From assembly GCF_056712565.1 (NCBI RefSeq), contig NZ_CM160072.1: a stretch of 64,000 nt of DNA; one strand, 5' to 3'. The notes beneath the pieces are model-generated. The model ran no database searches. It had not been told where the DNA came from and saw only the letters and a program-made list of their open reading frames with translations. The translations under genes were made by a program, and so were the position numbers. Below are positions 3,991-46,658 of the stretch, in pieces. Position 1 is the stretch's first letter, and the number at the start of each line of letters is the position of its first letter.

Positions 3991-5142
3991 TTACCAGGCG
4001 GTATGGTAAAGCTCTACAATATCCTCAAGCGTTGCTTCACGCGGGTTGCCACCGGTACAAACATCATCCAGTGCCGCCTGCGCCAGTGCCGGAATGTCTT
4101 CCTTGCGTACACCAACATCACGTAAATGTGGCGGAATACCGACATCACGGTTGAGAGCAAACACCGCTTCAACAGCGGCATTACGCGCCTCTTCCAGGCT
4201 CATACCTTCCACTTTCACGCCCATAACGCGCGCGATATCGCGGTACTTCTCACCGGTAAAGTCAGCGTTATAGCGCATGACATGCGGTAACAGGATGGCA
4301 TTTGCAACACCGTGTGGCGTGTTGTAAAACGCGCCCAGTGGATGCGCCATACCATGCACCAACCCTAACCCAACATTCGAGAATCCCATACCCGCAACAT
4401 ACTGCCCGAGCGCCATTTCTTCTCCGGCATCCTTATCACCAGCAACCGTTCCTCGCAGCGCCCCAGCAATGATTTCAATCGCTTTAATGTGCAGCGCATC
4501 GGTTAGCGCCCACGCGCCACGGGTAATATACCCCTCAATAGCATGAGTGAGCGCATCGACACCCGTCGCGGCTTTCAGCGCTGGAGGCATACCATCCATC
4601 ATGTCAGCGTCAATAAACGCCACCTGCGGGATATCATGCGGATCAACGCAAACAAACTTGCGCCGTTTCTCTTCGTCAGTGATCACGTAGTTAATGGTCA
4701 CTTCTGCCGCAGTGCCTGCTGTGGTGGGGATTGCCAGAATCGGTACACTGGGTTTATTGGTCGGGGAAAGCCCTTCCAGGCTACGCACATCGGCAAACTC
4801 CGGGTTGTTGCTGATAATGCCAATCGCTTTACACGTATCCTGTGGAGAACCACCACCAATAGCGATCAGGTAATCCGCGCCGCTATTCTGGAATACATCG
4901 AGCCCTTCTTTGACGACAGTAATTGTTGGGTTAGGTACTACGCCGTCGTAAATCGCCCATGCCAGTCCTGCCGCATCCATCTTATCGATCACTTTCGCCA
5001 CCACGCCGCATTGCACCAGCGTTTTATCGGTGACGATCAGCGCCTTCTGATAACCACGGCGTTTCACTTCATCGGTTAAAGCTCCAACAGCACCTCGACC
5101 AAACCATGCCGTTTCGTTCAGAATCATTCTGTTAGCCATCAT
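3991..5142 (-). CDS. fucO: L-1,2-propanediol oxidoreductase (lactaldehyde reductase)
   Basis: 383-aa ORF (M)MANRMILNETAWFGRGAVGAL, iron-containing alcohol dehydrogenase family. Confidence 0.95.
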   Translation of the reverse strand: MMANRMILNETAWFGRGAVGALTDEVKRRGYQKALIVTDKTLVQCGVVAKVIDKMDAAGLAWAIYDGVVPNPTITVVKEGLDVFQNSGADYLIAIGGGSPQDTCKAIGIISNNPEFADVRSLEGLSPTNKPSVPILAIPTTAGTAAEVTINYVITDEEKRRKFVCVDPHDIPQVAFIDADMMDGMPPALKAATGVDALTHAIEGYITRGAWALTDALHIKAIEIIAGALRGTVAGDKDAGEEMALGQYVAGMGFSNVGLGLVHGMAHPLGAFYNTPHGVANAILLPHVMRYNADFTGEKYRDIARVMGVKVEGMSLEEARNAAVEAVFALNRDVGIPPHLRDVGVRKEDIPALAQAALDDVCTGGNPREATLEDIVELYHTAW

Positions 5143-5166
5143 CCTTCTCCTTGTTGCTTTACGAAA

Positions 5167-5814
5167 TTACTCTTCAATCCGTAACCCGTAGGTTTTGAAT
5201 TTCTCCAGCACTACGGCAATCTCTTCATCGCTCAGCACTGGCACCGGGTCCGTAATCGCCAGGGTCGTCAGGTAAAGTTGTGCCAGCACTTCAACTTCAT
5301 GCGCCAGCCATAACGCTTTCTCCAGATTCGCCTCACAAGCGATAAGCCCATGATGTTGTAACAAAGTTGCCTTACGATTTTTGAGAGCCAGCGCAACATG
5401 TTCAGAAAGTTCGCGTGTTCCAAAGGTCGCATAAGGCGCGCAAGGAATAGAATTACCGCCAGCCGCCGCAATCATGTAGTGAATCGCGGGGATCGGTCGG
5501 TTAAGAATGGAAACTGCCGTACAATGAACGGCATGATTGTGAACAACCGCGTTGGCATCCGGTCTGCTTTGATAGGCCGCCATATGGAAACGCCACTCGC
5601 TTGAGGGGAGCTTTCCTTCCTCATGTTTGCCGTTGCCATCAATAAAGACAATATGCGACTCCGTCAGTTTTTCATATGGAATACCTGTAGGCGTAATCAG
5701 CATCCCATCCTGATAACGTACACTGACGTTACCCGCTGTCCCCTGGTTCAGCCCCAGGCGAGTCATTTCCAGGCAAGTGTCAATAATCTGACGAGCAAGT
5801 TTATTTCGTTCCAT
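5167..5814 (-). CDS. fucA: L-fuculose-phosphate aldolase
   Basis: 215-aa ORF MERNKLARQIIDTCLEMTRLGLNQGTAGNVS. Confidence 0.95.
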   Translation of the reverse strand: MERNKLARQIIDTCLEMTRLGLNQGTAGNVSVRYQDGMLITPTGIPYEKLTESHIVFIDGNGKHEEGKLPSSEWRFHMAAYQSRPDANAVVHNHAVHCTAVSILNRPIPAIHYMIAAAGGNSIPCAPYATFGTRELSEHVALALKNRKATLLQHHGLIACEANLEKALWLAHEVEVLAQLYLTTLAITDPVPVLSDEEIAVVLEKFKTYGLRIEE

Positions 5815-6360: not shown

Positions 6361-7676
6361 ATGGGAAACACATCAATACAAACGCAGAGTTACCGTGCGG
6401 TAGATAAAGATGCAGGGCAAAGCAGAAGTTACATTATTCCATTCGCGCTGCTGTGCTCACTGTTTTTTCTTTGGGCGGTAGCCAATAACCTTAACGACAT
6501 TTTATTGCCTCAATTCCAGCAGGCTTTTACGCTGACAAATTTCCAGGCTGGCCTGATCCAATCGGCCTTTTACTTTGGTTATTTCATTATCCCAATCCCT
6601 GCCGGGATATTGATGAAAAAACTCAGTTATAAAGCAGGGATTATTACCGGATTGTTTTTATATGCCTTCGGCGCTGCATTATTCTGGCCCGCCGCAGAAA
6701 TAATGAACTACACCTTGTTTTTAGTTGGCCTATTTATTATTGCAGCCGGATTAGGTTGTCTGGAAACTGCCGCAAACCCTTTTGTTACGGTATTAGGGCC
6801 GGAAAGCAGTGGTCACTTCCGCTTAAATCTTGCGCAAACATTTAACTCATTTGGCGCAATTATCGCGGTTGTCTTTGGGCAAAGTCTTATTTTGTCTAAC
6901 GTGCCACATCAATCGCAAGACGTTCTCGATAAAATGTCTCCAGAGCAATTGAGTGCGTATAAACACAGCCTGGTATTATCGGTACAGACACCTTATATGA
7001 TCATCGTGGCTATCGTGTTACTGGTCGCCCTGCTGATCATGCTGACGAAATTCCCGGCATTGCAGAGTGATAATCACAGTGACGCCAAACAAGGATCGTT
7101 CTCCGCATCGCTTTCTCGCCTGGCGCGTATTCGCCACTGGCGCTGGGCAGTATTAGCGCAATTCTGCTACGTCGGCGCACAAACAGCCTGCTGGAGCTAT
7201 TTGATTCGCTACGCTGTAGAAGAAATTCCAGGTATGACAGCAGGTTTTGCCGCTAACTATTTAACCGGAACCATGGTGTGCTTCTTTATTGGTCGTTTCA
7301 CCGGTACCTGGCTCATCAGTCGCTTCGCACCACACAAAGTCCTGGCAGCCTACGCATTAATCGCTATGGCACTGTGCCTGATCTCAGCCTTCGCTGGCGG
7401 TCATGTGGGTTTAATAGCCCTGACTTTATGCAGTGCCTTTATGTCGATTCAGTACCCAACAATCTTCTCGCTGGGCATTAAGAATCTCGCCAGGACACCA
7501 AATACGGTTCGTCCTTCATCGTTATGACCATTATTGGCGGCGGTATTGTCACTCCGGTCATGGGGTTTGTCAGTGACGCAGCGGGCAACATCCCCACTGC
7601 CGAACTGCTCCCGGCACTCTGCTTCGCAGTCATCTTTATCTTTGCCCGTTTCCGTTCTCAAACGGCAACTAACTGA
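6361..7676 (+). pseudogene. fucP: L-fucose:H+ symporter FucP, disrupted by a 1-bp frameshift near 7488
   Basis: ORF 6361-7527 ends ...SLGIKNLARTPNTVRPSSL*; the expected C-terminus FIVMTIIGGGIVTPVMGFVSDAAGNIPTAEL...RFRSQTATN continues in the +1 frame to a stop at 7674-7676; the whole span is 1316 nt, one short of 3 x 439. Confidence 0.8.
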
Positions 7677-7708: not shown

Positions 7709-9484
7709 ATGAAAAAAATCAGCTTACCGAAAATTGGTATCCGCCCGGTTATTGACGGTCGTCGCATGGGTGTTCGTGAGTCGCTTGAAGAACAAACAAT
7801 GAATATGGCGAAAGCCACGGCTGCACTGCTGACCGAGAAACTGCGCCATGCCTGCGGAGCTGCCGTCGAGTGTGTCATTTCCGATACCTGTATCGCGGGT
7901 ATGGCTGAAGCCGCTGCTTGCGAAGAAAAATTCAGCAGTCAGAATGTAGGCCTCACCATTACGGTAACCCCTTGCTGGTGCTATGGCAGTGAAACCATCG
8001 ACATGGATCCAACCCGCCCGAAAGCCATTTGGGGCTTTAACGGCACTGAACGTCCCGGCGCTGTTTACCTGGCAGCGGCTCTGGCAGCTCACAGCCAGAA
8101 AGGCATCCCGGCATTCTCCATTTACGGTCATGACGTTCAGGATGCCGATGACACATCGATTCCTGCCGATGTTGAAGAAAAACTGCTGCGCTTTGCCCGC
8201 GCCGGTTTAGCAGTCGCCAGCATGAAAGGTAAAAGCTATCTGTCGCTGGGCGGCGTTTCGATGGGTATCGCCGGTTCCATCGTTGATCATAACTTCTTTG
8301 AATCCTGGCTGGGAATGAAAGTCCAGGCGGTGGATATGACCGAACTGCGTCGCCGTATCGATCAGAAGATTTACGACGAAGCCGAACTGGAAATGGCGCT
8401 GGCCTGGGCTGATAAAAACTTCCGCTATGGCGAAGATGAAAATAACAAACAGTATCAACGCAATGCCGAGCAAAGCCGCGCAGTTCTGCGCGAAAGTTTA
8501 CTGATGGCGATGTGTATCCGCGACATGATGCAAGGCAACAGCAAACTGGCCGATATTGGTCGCGTGGAAGAATCACTTGGCTACAACGCCATCGCTGCAG
8601 GCTTCCAGGGGCAACGTCACTGGACCGATCAATATCCCAATGGCGATACCGCTGAAGCGATCCTCAACAGTTCATTTGACTGGAATGGCGTGCGCAAACC
8701 GTTTGTCGTGGCGACCGAAAACGACAGTCTTAACGGCGTGGCAATGTTAATGGGCCACCAGCTCACCGGCACCGCTCAGGTATTTGCCGATGTCCGTACC
8801 TACTGGTCACCAGAAGCAATTGAGCGTGTAACGGGGCATAAACTGGACGGGCTGGCAGAACACGGCATCATCCATTTGATCAACTCCGGTTCTGCTGCGC
8901 TGGACGGTTCCTGTAAACAACGCGACAGCGAAGGTAAACCGACGATGAAGCCGCACTGGGAAATCTCTCAGCAAGAGGCTGACGCTTGCCTCGCCGCTAC
9001 CGAATGGTGCCCGGCGATCCACGAATACTTCCGTGGCGGCGGTTACTCTTCCCGCTTTCTTACCGAAGGCGGCGTCCCGTTCACCATGACTCGTGTCAAC
9101 ATCATCAAAGGCCTGGGACCGGTACTGCAAATCGCGGAAGGCTGGAGCGTGGAATTGCCGAAGGATGTGCATGACATCCTCAACAAACGCACCAACTCAA
9201 CCTGGCCAACCACCTGGTTTGCACCGCGCCTCACCGGTAAAGGGCCGTTTACGGATGTGTACTCGGTAATGGCGAACTGGGGCGCTAACCACGGGGTTCT
9301 GACCATCGGCCACGTTGGCGCAGACTTTATCACTCTTGCCTCCATGCTGCGTATCCCGGTATGTATGCACAACGTTGAAGAGACCAAAGTGTATCGTCCT
9401 TCTGCCTGGGCCGCGCACGGCATGGATATTGAAGGCCAGGATTACCGCGCTTGCCAGAACTACGGCCCGTTGTACAAGCGTTAA
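7709..9484 (+). CDS. fucI: L-fucose isomerase
   Basis: 591-aa [33 protein letters not shown]. Confidence 0.95.
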
Positions 9485-9592: not shown

Positions 9593-11011
9593 ATGAAACA
9601 AGAAGTTATCCTGGTACTCGACTGTGGCGCGACCAATGTCAGGGCCATCGCGGTTAATCGGCAGGGAAAAATTGTTGCCCGCGCCTCAACGCCTAATGCC
9701 AGCGATATCGCGATGGAAAACAACACCTGGCACCAGTGGTCTTTAGACGCCATTTTGCAACGCTTTGCTGATTGCTGTCGGCAAATCAATAGTGAACTGA
9801 CTGATTGCCACATCCGCGGTATCGCCGTCACCACCTTTGGTGTGGATGGCGCTCTGGTAGATAAGCAAGGCAATCTGCTCTATCCGATCATTAGCTGGAA
9901 ATGTCCGCGAACAGCCGCGGTAATGGACCATATTGAACGGTTGATCTCCGCACAGCAGTTGCAGGCTATTTCTGGAGTCGGAGCCTTTAGTTTCAATACG
10001 TTATATAAGTTGGTGTGGTTGAAAGAAAATCATCCACAACTGCTGGAACGCGCGCACGCCTGGCTCTTTATTTCGTCGCTGATTAACCACCGTTTAACCG
10101 GCGAATTCACTACTGATATTACGATGGCCGGAACCAGCCAGATGCTGGATATCCAGCAACGCGATTTCAGTCCGCAAATTTTACAAGCCACCGGTATTCC
10201 ACGCCGACTCTTCCCTCGTCTGGTGGAAGCGGGTGAACAGATTGGTACGCTACAGAACAGCGCCGCAGCAATGCTCGGCTTACCCGTTGGCATACCGGTG
10301 ATTTCCGCAGGTCACGATACCCAGTTCGCCCTTTTTGGCGCTGGTGCCGAACAAAATGAACCCGTGCTCTCTTCCGGTACATGGGAAATTTTAATGGTCC
10401 GCAGCGCCCAGGTTGATACTTCGCTGTTAAGTCAGTACGCCGGTTCTACCTGCGAACTGGATAGCCAGGCAGGGTTGTATAACCCAGGTATGCAATGGCT
10501 GGCATCCGGCGTGCTGGAATGGGTGAGAAAACTGTTCTGGACGGCTGAAACTCCCTGGCAAATATTGATTGAAGAAGCTCGCCTGATCGCGCCTGGCGCA
10601 GATGGAGTGAAAATGCAGTGTGATTTATTGTCGTGCCAGAACGCTGGCTGGCAAGGCGTAACGCTTAATACCACGCGGGGGCATTTCTATCGCGCGGCGC
10701 TGGAAGGGTTAACCACGCAATTACAGCGCAATCTACAGATGCTGGAAAAAATCGGGCACTTTAAAGCCTCTGAATTATTGTTAGTCGGCGGAGGAAGTCG
10801 CAACACATTGTGGAATCAGATTAAAGCCAATATGCTTGATATTCCGGTAAAAGTTCTCGACGATGCCGAAACGACCGTCGCAGGAGCTGCGCTGTTTGGT
10901 TGGTATGGCGTAGGGGAATTTAACAGCCCGGAAGAAGCCCGTGCACAGATTCATTATCAGTACCGTTATTTCTACCCGCAAACTGAACCTGAATTTATAG
11001 AGGAGGTGTGA
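9593..11011 (+). CDS. fucK: L-fuculokinase
   Basis: ORF 9563-11011; conserved start [21 protein letters not shown] at ATG 9593 with upstream gcaggag RBS; FGGY kinase family. Confidence 0.9.
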
Positions 11012-11012
11012 A

Positions 11013-11435
11013 ATGCTGAAAACAATTTCGCCGTTAATTTCTCCCGAACTATTGAAAGTGCTGGCAGAGATGGGGCATGGAGATGAAATTATTTTTTCCG
11101 ATGCTCACTTTCCCGCCCATTCGATGGGACCGCAGGTGATCCGCGCTGATGGCCTGTTGGTGAGCGACTTGCTCCAGGCGATTATCCCGTTATTTGAGCT
11201 GGACAGTTATGCACCACCGCTGGTGATGATGGCGGCGGTAGAAGGTGACACTCTCGATCCTGAAGTAGAACGACGTTATCGTAATGCGCTTTCACTACAA
11301 GCCCCCTGTCCTGACATCATCCGCATCAATCGTTTTGCGTTTTATGAACGGGCGCAAAAAGCCTTTGCGATCGTTATCACAGGCGAACGAGCGAAGTACG
11401 GGAATATTCTTTTAAAAAAAGGGGTAACACCGTAA
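11013..11435 (+). CDS. fucU: L-fucose mutarotase
   Basis: 140-aa [37 protein letters not shown] (RbsD/FucU family). Confidence 0.95.
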
Positions 11436-11492
11436 TCTCATACCGGTACGCCCGCATGACGCGGGCGGTTATCGAATGATGGGGTGAAAAAT

Positions 11493-12224
11493 ATGAAAGC
11501 GGCACGCCAGCAAGCGATAGTCGACCTGCTGCTGAACCATACCAGCCTGACCACGGAAGCTCTCTCTGAACAGCTAAAGGTCAGTAAAGAAACCATTCGT
11601 CGCGATCTCAATGAATTACAGACGCAGGGTAAAATTCTGCGCAATCATGGGCGCGCTAAATATATCCACCGTCAAAATCAAGACAGTGGCGATCCCTTTC
11701 ACATCCGGCTGAAAAGCCATTATGCGCATAAAGCAGATATCGCGCGCGAGGCGCTCGCGTGGATTGAAGAAGGGATGGTGATAGCCTTAGACGCCAGTTC
11801 AACCTGCTGGTATCTGGCACGCCAGTTGCCTGACATCAACATCCAGGTCTTCACCAATAGCCATCCGATTTGCCATGAACTCGGTAAACGCGAACGCATT
11901 AAACTGATCAGTTCCGGCGGCACACTTGAGCGCAAATATGGCTGTTACGTCAATCCCTCGCTGATTTCCCAACTTAAATCGCTGGAAATCGATCTGTTTA
12001 TTTTTTCTTGTGAAGGGATCGATAGCAGCGGCGCACTGTGGGACTCCAATGCCATCAACGCTGATTACAAATCAATGTTATTAAAACGTGCCGCGCAATC
12101 GTTGTTATTGATTGATAAAAGTAAATTTAATCGTTCAGGGGAAGCCCGCATCGGGCATCTGGATGAGGTAACGCACATTATTTCTGATGAGCGCCAGGTT
12201 ACAACTTCTTTGGTAACAGCCTGA
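11493..12224 (+). CDS. fucR: DeoR-family activator of the fuc regulon
   Basis: ORF 11484-12224; ATG at 11493 gives 243 aa MKAARQQAIVDLL with an HTH region. Confidence 0.9.
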   Translation: MKAARQQAIVDLLLNHTSLTTEALSEQLKVSKETIRRDLNELQTQGKILRNHGRAKYIHRQNQDSGDPFHIRLKSHYAHKADIAREALAWIEEGMVIALDASSTCWYLARQLPDINIQVFTNSHPICHELGKRERIKLISSGGTLERKYGCYVNPSLISQLKSLEIDLFIFSCEGIDSSGALWDSNAINADYKSMLLKRAAQSLLLIDKSKFNRSGEARIGHLDEVTHIISDERQVTTSLVTA

Positions 12225-19349: not shown

Positions 19350-19426
<77 letters not shown>

Positions 19427-19459
19427 ATTAAAATTTGATGAAGTAAAGCAGTACGGTGA

Positions 19460-19536
<77 letters not shown>

Positions 19537-19569
19537 ATCAAAATTTGATGAAATAAAGCAGTACGGTGA

Positions 19570-19632
<63 letters not shown>

Positions 19633-19646
<14 letters not shown>

Positions 19647-44084: not shown

Positions 44085-44528
44085 ATGAATATTCAGGCAA
44101 TAAAAGAAATGGTAAATTTAATTTGTAGTTTTTTATTTATATTCTTTCTGTCCTCGGCTTTTGTTTCTTTTGGGTGTTATGCTATTTATGAATTGTTTTT
44201 ATGGAATGATATTATTGTATATAGCTGGGGATATATATTAATTGTCTTTTTACCTTTCACATTATATGTAATGTCGTTTGAGATTTTGTTTTTTGCTATT
44301 AGTGGGCGACGATTGTCTAAAGTAACAATGGTGCGCCTTTGGTTGATAATTAAAATTATTATTGCTTTCTCTATTTGCGCAGTGTTGATTTTTTCTTCAA
44401 TTTACAAAAAAGAATTATTATCTAGAAATTATATTGCTTGTAGTGGTATCCCGTCTGGGTGGATGCCGGGTCTGGCAACGAAATACGTTAAAGAAAAATC
44501 ATTATGCGAAAAAAATGGCAATAATTAA
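44085..44528 (+). CDS. small hypothetical multi-TM protein
   Basis: about 147 aa, four predicted TM helices, extremely AT-rich; possible GTG start at 44067. Confidence 0.4.
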   Translation: MNIQAIKEMVNLICSFLFIFFLSSAFVSFGCYAIYELFLWNDIIVYSWGYILIVFLPFTLYVMSFEILFFAISGRRLSKVTMVRLWLIIKIIIAFSICAVLIFSSIYKKELLSRNYIACSGIPSGWMPGLATKYVKEKSLCEKNGNN

Positions 44529-44897
44529 ATCAATGATGAGGTTATGATGTTTTATCTAAAAAACAATAGAGTAGCGATGTATCAGTAACAGTTAATTTTA
44601 TTTTCAGTGTGAGATTGCTTAATCTTACATGGCAAATAAATCAATGTCATGTAAAACGAAATGTAAATATCACACACTATATTAAAGATGTAATACCCAG
44701 GAAGATGAAGTAACTGACCGGCAATACTATAAGCAAAGTAGTCATTGTTTATTTTTAACAGATGATTGTAATGGTTTTTTAATTGCGCTCATCTTTATGG
44801 GTTATTGTTGTTTTTTACTGGTGTTTTATGAACTGTAAAATATATTTTCTTTTTACTGTTATCTAACTTTTTAGTTAAATGGGAAATAACTCTCTGA

Positions 44898-46658
44898 ATG
44901 GACGACCTGACCCAACGCTACTATGAAGCCGAAATGCGCTACCTGCGTGAAGCGGGTAAAGAATTCGCACAGGCGTATCCCGACCGTGCTGCGATGCTTA
45001 ATCTTGATAAACCCGGCGCACGCGATCCCTATGTGGAGCGCCTGTTCGAGGGCTTCGCTTTTTTAATGGGCCGCCTGCGCGAAAAGCTGGACGACGATCT
45101 GCCGGAACTGACTGAAGGGCTGGTCAGCCTGCTGTGGCCCCACTACCTGCGAACCATCCCGTCACTTTCCGTGGTTGAACTGTCGACAGATCACCGGCAG
45201 ATGAAGCAGAGCGAAACGCTGAGCGATTTTCAGGTATTGTCGCGCCCTGTTGGCGAGCGCAGAACCCGCTGCGTCTACAGTGCCACGCGTGATATCACGC
45301 TGCATCCGCTGGCGTTGCCGGACGTGTCATTGCAATATGAACCGGACGGACGCTCGGTTATCCGTCTGCGCTTTGCGTGCGGCCCGCTGGTTGGTGACTG
45401 GTCGCAGATCGATTTATCCCGCCTGCCGCTCTATCTCAATGCCGACAGCCCGGTAGCCTGTGCGTTGCACCGGGCTTTAACGCTTGGCACGCAGCAGTTC
45501 TGGCTGCGTCTGCCGGGGCAGGATCGCCGGATGCTTGGCGCACACTTTTCCCCGATGGGCTTTGAGGATGATGACAGGCTCTGGCCAAAAGGTGAGTCAG
45601 CCTTCAGCGGTTACCAGTTGCTGCTGGAGTATTTCACCTTCCGCGAGAAGTTTATGTTCGTGGCGCTGAACGGGCTGGAGCAGGTTGCATGGCCGGAGGG
45701 GATAACCGGCTTTGAGATTGACGTGGTGCTGAACGAGAACTGGCCTCACGACCTGCCGTTTGACAGCGATAATATCCGTCTGCACTGCGTGCCGGTCATC
45801 AACCTGTTCCCGCTCGAAGCCGATCCGTTACACCTTTCGCCACTGGAAAACGAATTTCTGCTACGCCCGATGCGCATTCAGGACGGGCATACCGAGATTT
45901 ATTCCGTCGACAACATTATTTCTTCGCGCCATACCGGCAGTCAGGCATATGTCCCCTTTTCCAGCTTTCGTCACCGGGGCGGGATGCTGCGCCACGATGC
46001 GCCGGAACGCTATTACCACACGCGGGTAAAGCGCGGCCCTTCCGGCTTGCACGACACATGGCTGATTCTGGGCGGCGATGCGTTTGATTCCGACCGGATG
46101 CTGGAGGATGAAACCCTGTCCTTAAGTCTGACCGGCACCAACGGGCAGCTTCCCCGTAAAGCCTTACAGAGCACCCTGCTCGATACGCCAGTTCATGCCT
46201 CACAGAACGTCCTGCGGGTGCGCAACCTGTGCGCCCCGACGCAGCCCTGCTATCCCCCGGCGCGTGACCGCTTCCACTGGCGGGTGCTCAGCCACCTCGG
46301 TTCTAACTTTTTATCGATGATGGATAACGCCGAAATTCTGCGCGGCACGCTGGCGCTGTACGACTGGACCGAAAGCGAGATGAACCGCCGTCGTCTGGAG
46401 GCGATTGTCGACGTTCAGCACAGCCTGATACAGCGTTTTGAAAGAGGCTTTCTGCTGCGTGGCGTGGATATTCAGGTGACGCTGGACAGTAACGGCTTTG
46501 CCGGAGAAGGTGATATCACGCTGTTTGGTGAACTGCTGCACCGCTTCTTCGCACTGTATGCCGATATCCACTTATTCACTCAACTGACCTTAATTCTGCA
46601 ACCCACAGGAAAGTGCCTGCAATGGACAGAGCATCACAGCCAGCGCGTACCGGGCTGA
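44898..46658 (+). CDS. tssF: T6SS baseplate protein TssF
   Basis: 586 aa MDDLTQRYYEAEMRYLREAGKEFAQAYPDRAAMLNLDKPGARDPYVERLFEGFAFL. Confidence 0.9.
   Translation: MDDLTQRYYEAEMRYLREAGKEFAQAYPDRAAMLNLDKPGARDPYVERLFEGFAFLMGRLREKLDDDLPELTEGLVSLLWPHYLRTIPSLSVVELSTDHRQMKQSETLSDFQVLSRPVGERRTRCVYSATRDITLHPLALPDVSLQYEPDGRSVIRLRFACGPLVGDWSQIDLSRLPLYLNADSPVACALHRALTLGTQQFWLRLPGQDRRMLGAHFSPMGFEDDDRLWPKGESAFSGYQLLLEYFTFREKFMFVALNGLEQVAWPEGITGFEIDVVLNENWPHDLPFDSDNIRLHCVPVINLFPLEADPLHLSPLENEFLLRPMRIQDGHTEIYSVDNIISSRHTGSQAYVPFSSFRHRGGMLRHDAPERYYHTRVKRGPSGLHDTWLILGGDAFDSDRMLEDETLSLSLTGTNGQLPRKALQSTLLDTPVHASQNVLRVRNLCAPTQPCYPPARDRFHWRVLSHLGSNFLSMMDNAEILRGTLALYDWTESEMNRRRLEAIVDVQHSLIQRFERGFLLRGVDIQVTLDSNGFAGEGDITLFGELLHRFFALYADIHLFTQLTLILQPTGKCLQWTEHHSQRVPG

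What the first reader, a model, noticed from the sequence alone, without database searches (positions are those of the whole stretch)
7480..7530. Single-base deletion frameshift truncating the fucose permease gene fucP
The window reads aatctcgccaggacacc where an intact fucP is expected to read aatctcggccaggacacc (NLGQDTKYGSS). The frame then terminates after 388 residues, and the remaining 50 or so residues, including the last TM helices, are encoded in the +1 frame up to 7676. fucI, fucK, fucU and fucR are intact. This is either a sequencing error or a genuine defect in fucose uptake.
Basis: partly seen in the sequence, partly recalled or inferred. Interest (0 to 1): 0.55.

Follow-up and report, generated by a model that had tools for sequence, protein, structure and literature searches.

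The report
One-base deletion truncating fucose permease
One missing G breaks the fucose-uptake gene fucP in this poultry E. coli strain; this is an ordinary gene-inactivating change (or possibly an assembly error), notable only because unrelated E. coli lineages have lost a base at the same few positions.

Summary
Window fucP (6361-7527) differs from intact fucP of close relatives by loss of one G of a GG pair (remaining G at 7489). The product keeps native residues 1-376, adds 12 aberrant residues and stops, losing the last two transmembrane helices. The last 50 codons survive as a separate ORF (7524-7676). All other fuc genes are identical to strain S88.

The deletion is the only indel in 64 kb against S88. 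None of 5,023 complete E. coli genomes has it. The window belongs to a B2 avian-pathogenic clone whose known megabase-scale assemblies are short-read-polished hybrids (PMC10190287).

The missing G lies next to a Dcm site (CCAGG). Raw nanopore assemblies do err there, but at nearly every Dcm site, in a different form, and together with homopolymer errors. The window has none of these. The same G loss occurs in clean read-level assemblies of two other lineages. Single-base losses cluster within 5 nt (P about 0.003).

However, no read-level assembly of the window's own clone shows the deletion. Best estimate: genuine isolate-specific loss of function at a recurrently hit site, about 0.55; consensus or polishing artefact, about 0.35. 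Only the source reads can settle it. Interest is low.

The parts
6361..7527 (+). Truncated fucP reading frame: 388 codons plus stop; native FucP residues 1-376 (6361-7488), then 12 aberrant codons (7489-7524), then TGA at 7525-7527
   Evidence: NCBIfam NF007524 840 bits, profile positions 1-378 of 438.
7489..7489 (+). Deletion site: a single G where all relatives have GG (fucP nt 1129-1130, codon Gly377)
   Evidence: the only indel against S88 in 64 kb; 0 of 5,023 complete genomes carry this or the two neighbouring deletion forms.
7490..7494 (.). Dcm methylation motif CCAGG immediately 3' of the deletion
   Evidence: Read from the sequence. Nanopore-type assemblies lose bases in this motif and in most other CCWGG motifs.
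7524..7676 (+). 3' remnant of fucP: ATG (native Met389) overlapping the new stop as ATGA; encodes native residues 389-438 (part of TM11, plus TM12)
   Evidence: (profile positions 389-438).
7709..9484 (+). fucI, intact; now 182 nt rather than 33 nt downstream of the last translated fucP codon
   Evidence: identical to S88.
9593..12224 (+). fucK (9593-11011), fucU (11013-11435) and fucR (11493-12224), all intact
   Evidence: Coordinates transferred from the S88 annotation. The sequence is identical to S88.
3991..5814 (-). Divergent fucAO operon: fucO (3991-5139) and fucA (5167-5814), intact

Best explanation
The sequenced isolate most likely carries a genuine, very recent one-base deletion in fucP. 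Loss of one G from the GG of codon 377 shifts the frame. Translation then adds 12 wrong residues and stops, so the permease lacks transmembrane helices 11 and 12 and should not transport fucose. Because uptake is needed to form the inducer fuculose-1-phosphate, the otherwise intact fuc regulon would stay largely silent, and the strain should grow poorly or not at all on L-fucose. The mutation arose at a short G/C-rich stretch (CTCGGCCAGG) where unrelated E. coli lineages have independently lost single bases. It is therefore a locally mutable site and not a shared ancestral lesion. Shown here: the lesion, its uniqueness, its effect on the reading frame, the recurrence elsewhere, and the cleanliness of the rest of the window. 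Inferred: loss of transport, the phenotype, and that the deletion is in the DNA and not only in the consensus.
For: (1) The deletion is the only indel against S88 in 64 kb, although the window holds 120 CCWGG sites, 88 homopolymers of 6 or more, and 12 other GGCCWGG contexts, all intact. (2) The window's three substitutions absent from the best complete genome are real clone markers, found as exact proteins on 30, 70 and 15+ other contigs, so the consensus is reliable. (3) The window is 100% identical over 11-20 kb to members of a B2 avian clone whose large contigs are Unicycler hybrids with 370-1,250x Illumina depth, polished with Pilon and Snippy. A nanopore error in a single-copy gene should not survive that treatment. 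(4) The same G loss is the only indel in 21 kb of two unrelated read-level assemblies, L034 (XJ34-like) and L035 (SE11-like). These differ from each other by 41 substitutions in 6 kb, and each is otherwise identical or nearly identical to its nearest genome. (5) On one common FucP background, the product of this deletion class is on 3 contigs, the nanopore-typical forms on 0, and controls including 3-nt runs on 0-1. (6) ERR13964322 has lost the adjacent C1128 on a fourth background. (7) Clean events cluster: 3 of 7 within 5 of 103 nt, P = 0.0035. (8) A nanopore run from the same project (SRR22784819) errs at this site in a different form, keeping GG and losing a G of CCAGG.
Against: No read-level assembly of the window's own clone encodes the 388-aa or the B2-type 50-aa product with this deletion, although several Illumina runs of the clone are indexed. 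If the source isolate's short reads are among them, they do not carry the deletion. The site abuts a Dcm motif, a documented source of nanopore signal disturbance (PMC8495745). The source assembly was not identified exactly and its technology is inferred. The read technology of the runs behind L034 and L035 is inferred from their error profile and is not documented (one search found no paper). A GG pair is a weak slippage substrate, so a real hotspot there lacks an established mechanism.
Confidence: 0.55

Rival explanations
1. Consensus or polishing artefact: the strain has intact fucP, and the missing G was introduced during hybrid assembly or post-assembly editing, for example from a long-read-derived stretch or from applying variant calls to the draft.
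For: The deletion lies 1 nt from CCAGG. Nanopore-type assemblies lose bases at this motif in 5 of 5 cases. The clone's large contigs come from a pipeline that used Guppy v2.1.1 reads, Flye assemblies fed into Unicycler, and then Pilon plus a Snippy/VCFtools edit. No read-level assembly of the clone shows the deletion. The deletion is private to one sequence.
Against: Those noisy assemblies err at nearly every Dcm site and at long homopolymers, so their hits here are not site-specific. The window has none of those errors in 64 kb. Their deletion forms (nt 1133/1134, or 1131 in one contig) differ from the window's (1129/1130), including in a nanopore run from the same project. Two rounds of short-read polishing at several hundred-fold depth should remove such an error. 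R10.4.1 SUP models reach about 99% accuracy in CCWGG (PMC11610603). None of 5,023 complete genomes, many presumably long-read based (my assumption; the collection carries no technology labels), shows any deletion form here. The same G loss occurs in clean assemblies of other lineages.
Confidence: 0.35
2. The deletion is real in the sequenced DNA but arose during laboratory culture or storage of the isolate, or was a subpopulation in the DNA preparation. It would then say nothing about the strain in the bird. This is a sub-case of the best explanation.
For: It is private to one sequence within a clone whose other members are identical in the regions compared. A mixed population would also explain why a k-mer assembler might not yield a complete frameshifted gene (inference).
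Against: There is no direct evidence of heterogeneity. No selective reason is known for fucP loss on standard media.
Confidence: 0.1
3. Split but functional permease: reinitiation at the ATGA overlap (7524-7527) yields a 50-residue C-terminal fragment that assembles with the 388-residue fragment, as co-expressed halves of LacY can. Transport would then be partly retained.
For: The stop of the shifted frame overlaps an in-frame ATG (native Met389).
Against: Native residues 377-388 are encoded by neither fragment, and the break falls inside the predicted TM11 (383-405), not in a loop. No Shine-Dalgarno-like sequence precedes the ATG (read). None of 5,023 genomes keeps such an arrangement.
Confidence: 0.03
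4. Programmed recoding or phase variation: the frame is restored by ribosomal or transcriptional slippage, or the site is a contingency switch.
For: Single-base losses recur at this site in several lineages.
Against: There is no slippery heptamer and no long homopolymer or tandem repeat, only GG and CC. The frameshifted state is absent from all 5,023 complete genomes, so it is not a maintained state. No significant local structure was found.
Confidence: 0.01

Closest known systems
E. coli K-12 FucP, L-fucose:H+ symporter (PDB 3O7Q/3O7P; NCBIfam NF007524, TIGR00885; MFS fucose-H+ symporter family)
   Same: The repaired window protein is 438 aa and differs from the crystallised protein at 2 residues (F103 for L, L417 for I). 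It has the same position as first gene of fucPIKUR, divergent from fucAO.
   Different: The window allele encodes only residues 1-376 plus 12 aberrant residues. The last two hydrophobic segments (383-405, 408-434) are missing from the main product.
Other natural fucP-disrupted alleles: IS1 insertions in Shigella flexneri, the 5' truncation in S. flexneri serotype 6, and E. coli lineages lacking fucP such as B/BL21
   Same: The permease is lost while much of the pathway is retained. About 5-7% of E. coli lack fucP (5,038 of 5,426 genomes have it; PMC10221146). IS1 sits in fucP in L018 and L019. Serotype 6 lacks the first 342 nt (PMC11708030).
   Different: Those lesions are lineage-wide and old, made by insertion or large deletion and often accompanied by decay of other fuc genes. 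This one is a single-base loss private to one sequence, with every other fuc gene intact.
Nanopore consensus errors at Dcm (CCWGG) sites
   Same: The deletion is next to CCAGG. Raw nanopore assemblies of this locus lose a base in that motif. SRR22784819 is confirmed as an ONT run by PMC10190287.
   Different: Such assemblies show errors at most CCWGG sites and at long homopolymers, and here lose nt 1133/1134 (1131 in one contig). The window has one indel in 64 kb, and it is at 1129/1130.

Membership tests
FucP, L-fucose:H+ symporter (NCBIfam NF007524 / TIGR00885) | Sequence match above the curated whole-protein cut-off | tested here: met
   NF007524 840.2 bits (cut-off 427); TIGR00885 593 bits (cut-off 280.4) for the 388-aa product.
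FucP, L-fucose:H+ symporter (NCBIfam NF007524 / TIGR00885) | Full-length 12-helix MFS architecture | tested here: not met
   The match covers profile positions 1-378 of 438. Hydrophobic segments 383-405 and 408-434 are absent from the main product. The 50-aa ORF matches profile positions 389-438 separately.
FucP, L-fucose:H+ symporter (NCBIfam NF007524 / TIGR00885) | Genomic context: first gene of fucPIKUR, divergent from fucAO | tested here: met
   The window is identical to the annotated S88 locus apart from the deletion.
FucP, L-fucose:H+ symporter (NCBIfam NF007524 / TIGR00885) | Fucose/proton symport activity | not testable with these tools
   Needs uptake or growth assays.
Frameshift pseudogene | Both parts align to one intact orthologue in two different frames, with a single indel at the junction | tested here: met
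   One 1-nt gap and no mismatches against S88 fucP over 1317 nt.
Frameshift pseudogene | The lesion is present in the organism's DNA and not only in the consensus | not testable with these tools
   No reads are available. Indirect evidence is mixed: the window is clean and the event recurs elsewhere, but no read-level assembly of the clone carries it.
Nanopore Dcm-motif consensus error | Located in or next to CCWGG | tested here: met
   The deleted G is 1 nt 5' of CCAGG at 7490-7494.
Nanopore Dcm-motif consensus error | Accompanied by similar errors at other CCWGG sites and at long homopolymers in the same assembly | tested here: not met
   No other indel against S88, with 119 further CCWGG sites and 88 homopolymers of 6 or more. 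Compare 19-24 indel events per 6 kb in L016 and L017.
Nanopore Dcm-motif consensus error | Same error form as raw nanopore data at this site | tested here: not met
   Noisy contigs lose nt 1133 or 1134 (1131 in one alignment of L010) and keep GG. The window loses 1129/1130.
Phase-variable contingency locus | Long homopolymer or tandem repeat within the reading frame | tested here: not met
   Only GG and CC at the site. The frameshifted state is absent from 5,023 genomes.

The most novel reading that the evidence does not exclude
CTCGGCCAGG in fucP may be a genuine sequence-specific hotspot for one-base deletions, unrelated to homopolymer length, that recurrently inactivates fucose uptake in unrelated E. 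coli lineages. One speculative mechanism is error-prone resynthesis during very-short-patch (Vsr) repair at the adjacent Dcm site. The patch started on the bottom strand would cover exactly nt 1134 down to about 1125, where all the clean deletions lie (1128, 1129/30, 1131/32). If that were general, Dcm-adjacent positions would be an unrecognised class of frameshift hotspots.
Probability: 0.2. Interest if true: 0.45.

Novelty: new member of a known kind. Interest (0 to 1): 0.2.

Why it matters
If real, this avian-pathogenic B2 isolate cannot take up L-fucose, a mucus-derived gut sugar, while clone-mates can. That would be a small example of within-clone metabolic loss, testable with one growth assay. 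It has no wider consequence by itself. The modest added value is methodological. A frameshift next to a Dcm site should not be dismissed as a nanopore error without checking whether the rest of the assembly shows that error signature. Equally, recurrence of a lesion in public data needs the noisy long-read assemblies separated from the clean ones. The apparent clustering of independent single-base losses within 5 nt is a minor curiosity that a systematic survey could confirm or dissolve.

Tried and rejected
(1) A generally error-prone assembly: rejected, because there are only six substitutions and one indel against S88 in 64 kb, and the three substitutions absent from the best complete genome are shared clone markers.

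(2) A shared lineage pseudogene: rejected, because 0 of 5,023 complete genomes have this or the neighbouring deletion forms. There were also no hits in JGI metagenomes or the species-representative genomes. The two gapped-pattern hits were unrelated sequences.

(3) Using the nanopore-type contigs as evidence that this site is specially error-prone: rejected, because they lose bases at nearly every CCWGG and long homopolymer.

(4) N-gaps at the site in metagenome scaffolds: L045 shows a join between E. coli and another species' fucP, so I treated all four scaffolds as assembly artefacts and irrelevant.

(5) L002 as G-run slippage in a CTGGGCC variant: rejected, because its lineage reads CTCGGCC and it has truly lost C1128.

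(6) Hairpin or quasi-palindrome mechanism: DNA folding of both strands gave z-scores of -0.35 to -1.5, not significant. The upstream quasi-repeat TCTCGC could template the change, but this is unsupported.

(7) Programmed frameshifting: no slippery sequence is present.

(8) Tracing the runs that carry the same deletion (ERR9438557, SRR29342803, ERR13964322 and others) to papers: no hits.

(9) Fetching the fucP region of the clone's NCBI assemblies: not possible, because no clone-specific protein lies within 10 kb of fucP.

Full report
**Observation.** The window reads AAGAATCTCGCCAGGACACC at 7480-7499. Intact fucP of S88 and UTI89 reads AAGAATCTCGGCCAGGACACC. Over the whole 1317-nt gene the window differs from S88 by one gap and no mismatches, namely loss of one G of the GG at fucP nt 1129/1130. 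The resulting ORF (6361-7527) encodes 388 residues: native 1-376, then ARTPNTVRPSSL. Its TGA stop overlaps an ATG that opens a 50-codon ORF (7524-7676) encoding native residues 389-438.

**Identity and consequence.** The 388-aa product scores 840 bits on NCBIfam NF007524 (L-fucose:H+ symporter permease, cut-off 427) but covers only profile positions 1-378 of 438. The 50-aa ORF matches positions 389-438. The repaired protein is 2 residues different from the crystallised K-12 FucP, PDB 3O7Q. The two C-terminal hydrophobic segments (383-405 and 408-434) are lost from the main product, and residues 377-388 are encoded by neither fragment. By inference from the 12-helix MFS fold, the protein should be inactive. 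fucO, fucA, fucI, fucK, fucU and fucR are identical to the annotated intact genes of S88. From established knowledge of the fuc regulon, uptake is needed to make the inducer fuculose-1-phosphate. The expected phenotype is therefore poor or no growth on fucose, as reported for a K-12 fucP deletion mutant (PMC10221146).

**How unusual the allele is.** Of 5,426 complete E. coli genomes, 5,023 contain this segment. None has the window's 65-mer, and none has the two neighbouring deletion forms, loss of C1131/32 or of G1134/35. JGI metagenome contigs and the species-representative genomes have no single-base deletion in the 9-nt core. The two pattern hits there were unrelated sequences.

**Quality of the window.** Against S88 the 64-kb window shows six substitutions and exactly one indel, the fucP one. 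It contains 120 CCWGG sites, 88 homopolymers of 6 or more, and 12 other GGCCWGG contexts, all intact. Three substitutions are absent from the best complete genome, SF-468: Hcp T81P, a PAAR protein G217R, and a hypothetical protein D19V. They are genuine clone markers, because the exact variant proteins occur on 30, 70 and 15 or more other contigs.

**Source.** Contigs carrying the D19V protein include GCA_027274065.1 (a single 5,120,130-bp contig), SRR22784687, SRR22784710 and GCA_021417825.1. All are 100% identical to the window over 11-20 kb. A resource announcement lists these accessions (PMC10190287). It describes hybrid assemblies of 245 avian and barn E. coli from Saskatchewan broiler farms. 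The clone comprises phylogroup B2 strains 0038_1S2, 0038_2L3, 0038_3S2 and 4957_2L3. These were assembled with Unicycler v0.5.0 from nanopore reads (Guppy v2.1.1, Flye) and 370-1,250x Illumina reads, then polished with Pilon and Snippy. The authors did not determine circularity. I infer that this is why the assemblies are missing from the complete-genome collection. I could not determine which assembly the window comes from, nor fetch the fucP region of those records.

**The artefact hypothesis.** The missing G lies 1 nt 5' of a Dcm site (CCAGG, 7490-7494), and Dcm methylation disturbs the nanopore signal (PMC8495745). Five public contigs of this locus (L009, L010, L011, L016, L017) lose a base in this motif. 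They also lose bases at nearly every other CCWGG and at A6, A7 and T6 runs, with 19-24 indel events per 6 kb in L016 and L017. The paper confirms that L011's run, SRR22784819, is a nanopore run, and that the clean run SRR22784687 is Illumina. These noisy contigs therefore say nothing specific about this site. Their error form differs from the window's: they lose nt 1133/1134 (1131 in one alignment of L010) and keep GG, including the run from the same project. The window has no other such error. With R10.4.1 SUP models, accuracy within CCWGG is about 99% (PMC11610603).

**Recurrence in clean assemblies.** Any one-base deletion between nt 1063 and 1165 produces the same 388 + 50 split, because the shifted frame is open only there. 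Looking up contigs on which the 50-aa fragment is called as a gene therefore samples such events without regard to position.

- Among clean E. coli contigs from that sample, deletions lie at 1067, 1070, 1093, 1117, 1130 (L014), 1130 (L021) and 1131 (L007/L008, counted once).
- L014 and L021 differ from each other by 41 substitutions in 6 kb. Each is identical to its own nearest complete genomes (XJ34-like, SE11-like) except for this gap.
- Over 21 kb, with 81-84 CCWGG sites and about 20 long homopolymers, that gap remains their only indel.
- ERR13964322 (L002) is PAR-like B2 and has lost the adjacent C1128. This is its only difference from strain PAR in 2.5 kb.
- An exact-product census on the common K-12-type FucP background found the C1128/G1129-30 class on 3 contigs. 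It found the C1131 and G1134 classes on none, and seven control classes (including CCC, GGG, AAA and TTT runs) on 0-1 each.
- Three of seven unbiased events fall within 5 of 103 nt (P = 0.0035). Across all clean events excluding the window, the figure is four of ten (P = 0.0009).
- In other enterobacterial species, where the site reads CTGGGACAAGAC, deletions fall elsewhere, at 1062, 1086 and 1104.

No significant DNA secondary structure explains the clustering. The read technology of the runs behind L014, L021 and L002 is inferred from their clean error profile. I could not document it.

**Evidence against a real mutation.** The exact 388-aa product on the B2 background exists in only one other place, L002, which is a different lineage and a different deletion. 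The B2-type 50-aa fragment is not called on any clean contig of the clone, although several Illumina runs of the clone are indexed. If the source isolate's short reads are among them, they do not carry the deletion. This is indirect, because the index may be incomplete, or a mixed population could break the contig. It is still the main reason I do not go above 0.55.

**Verdict.** The most likely reading (0.55) is a genuine, isolate-specific, very recent loss-of-function deletion in fucP, at a short G/C stretch that other lineages have also hit. This includes a sub-case (about 0.1) in which it arose in culture. A consensus or polishing artefact remains a serious rival (0.35). Split-permease function (0.03) and recoding or phase variation (0.01) are very unlikely.

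In kind this is an ordinary frameshift pseudogene, a new allele of a known phenomenon, so interest is low. The only mildly unusual element is the apparent deletion hotspot beside a Dcm site. A Vsr short-patch-repair origin is a speculative idea that my data neither support nor exclude. Read mapping for the source isolate would settle the main question in minutes.

Noticed in passing
L052 (SRR22784710) against window 33274-45371: PMC10190287 lists SRR22784710 as the Illumina run of strain E11FP_1, phylogroup 'Cryptic'. Yet its 12,098-nt contig is 100% identical to the B2 clone's type VI secretion region. This could be contamination, a sample mix-up or recent transfer.
   Followed up: no
L016 (GCA_910593955.1, 5.5-Mb contig) and L017 (ERZ1759872): These public assemblies carry one-base deletions at almost every CCWGG site and long homopolymer across the fuc operon, which fragments fucA, fucP, fucI and fucK into pieces. 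They look like unpolished nanopore assemblies and would inflate any pseudogene count.
   Followed up: partly
L004, L005, L044, L045 (ENA metagenome scaffolds): These scaffolds have 10-N gaps inside fucP. In L045 the gap joins E. coli sequence to another enterobacterial species' fucP, so it is a chimeric scaffold; the other three look similar but their flanks were not compared in the same way.
   Followed up: partly
window 19350-19646: Three tandem tRNA-Met (CAT) genes with a 110-nt period. At least one short-k read-level contig (ERR9438557, L021) ends in this repeat, so fucP cannot be linked to the clone-specific markers downstream in such contigs.
   Followed up: partly
window 26359, 42270, 43329 (type VI secretion cluster, about 20-44 kb): The three substitutions that mark this clone are all nonsynonymous: Hcp T81P, PAAR-domain protein G217R, and hypothetical protein D19V. 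They all lie in the type VI secretion cluster. A Thr-to-Pro change in the Hcp tube protein could affect function.
   Followed up: partly
L018 (GCA_900450075.1) and L019 (Shigella flexneri K-315): IS1 transposase genes lie inside fucP, with further frameshifts in fucA and fucI in L018. This is independent decay of the fucose pathway in Shigella-type genomes, consistent with PMC11708030.
   Followed up: no
PMC10190287, Table 1 (strains 0038_1S2, 0038_2L3, 0038_3S2): Three presumably clonal isolates from one farm have largest-contig lengths of 5,121,182, 5,121,630 and 5,121,674 bp. Differences of 44-492 bp suggest residual assembly differences or small real indels between clone-mates.
   Followed up: no
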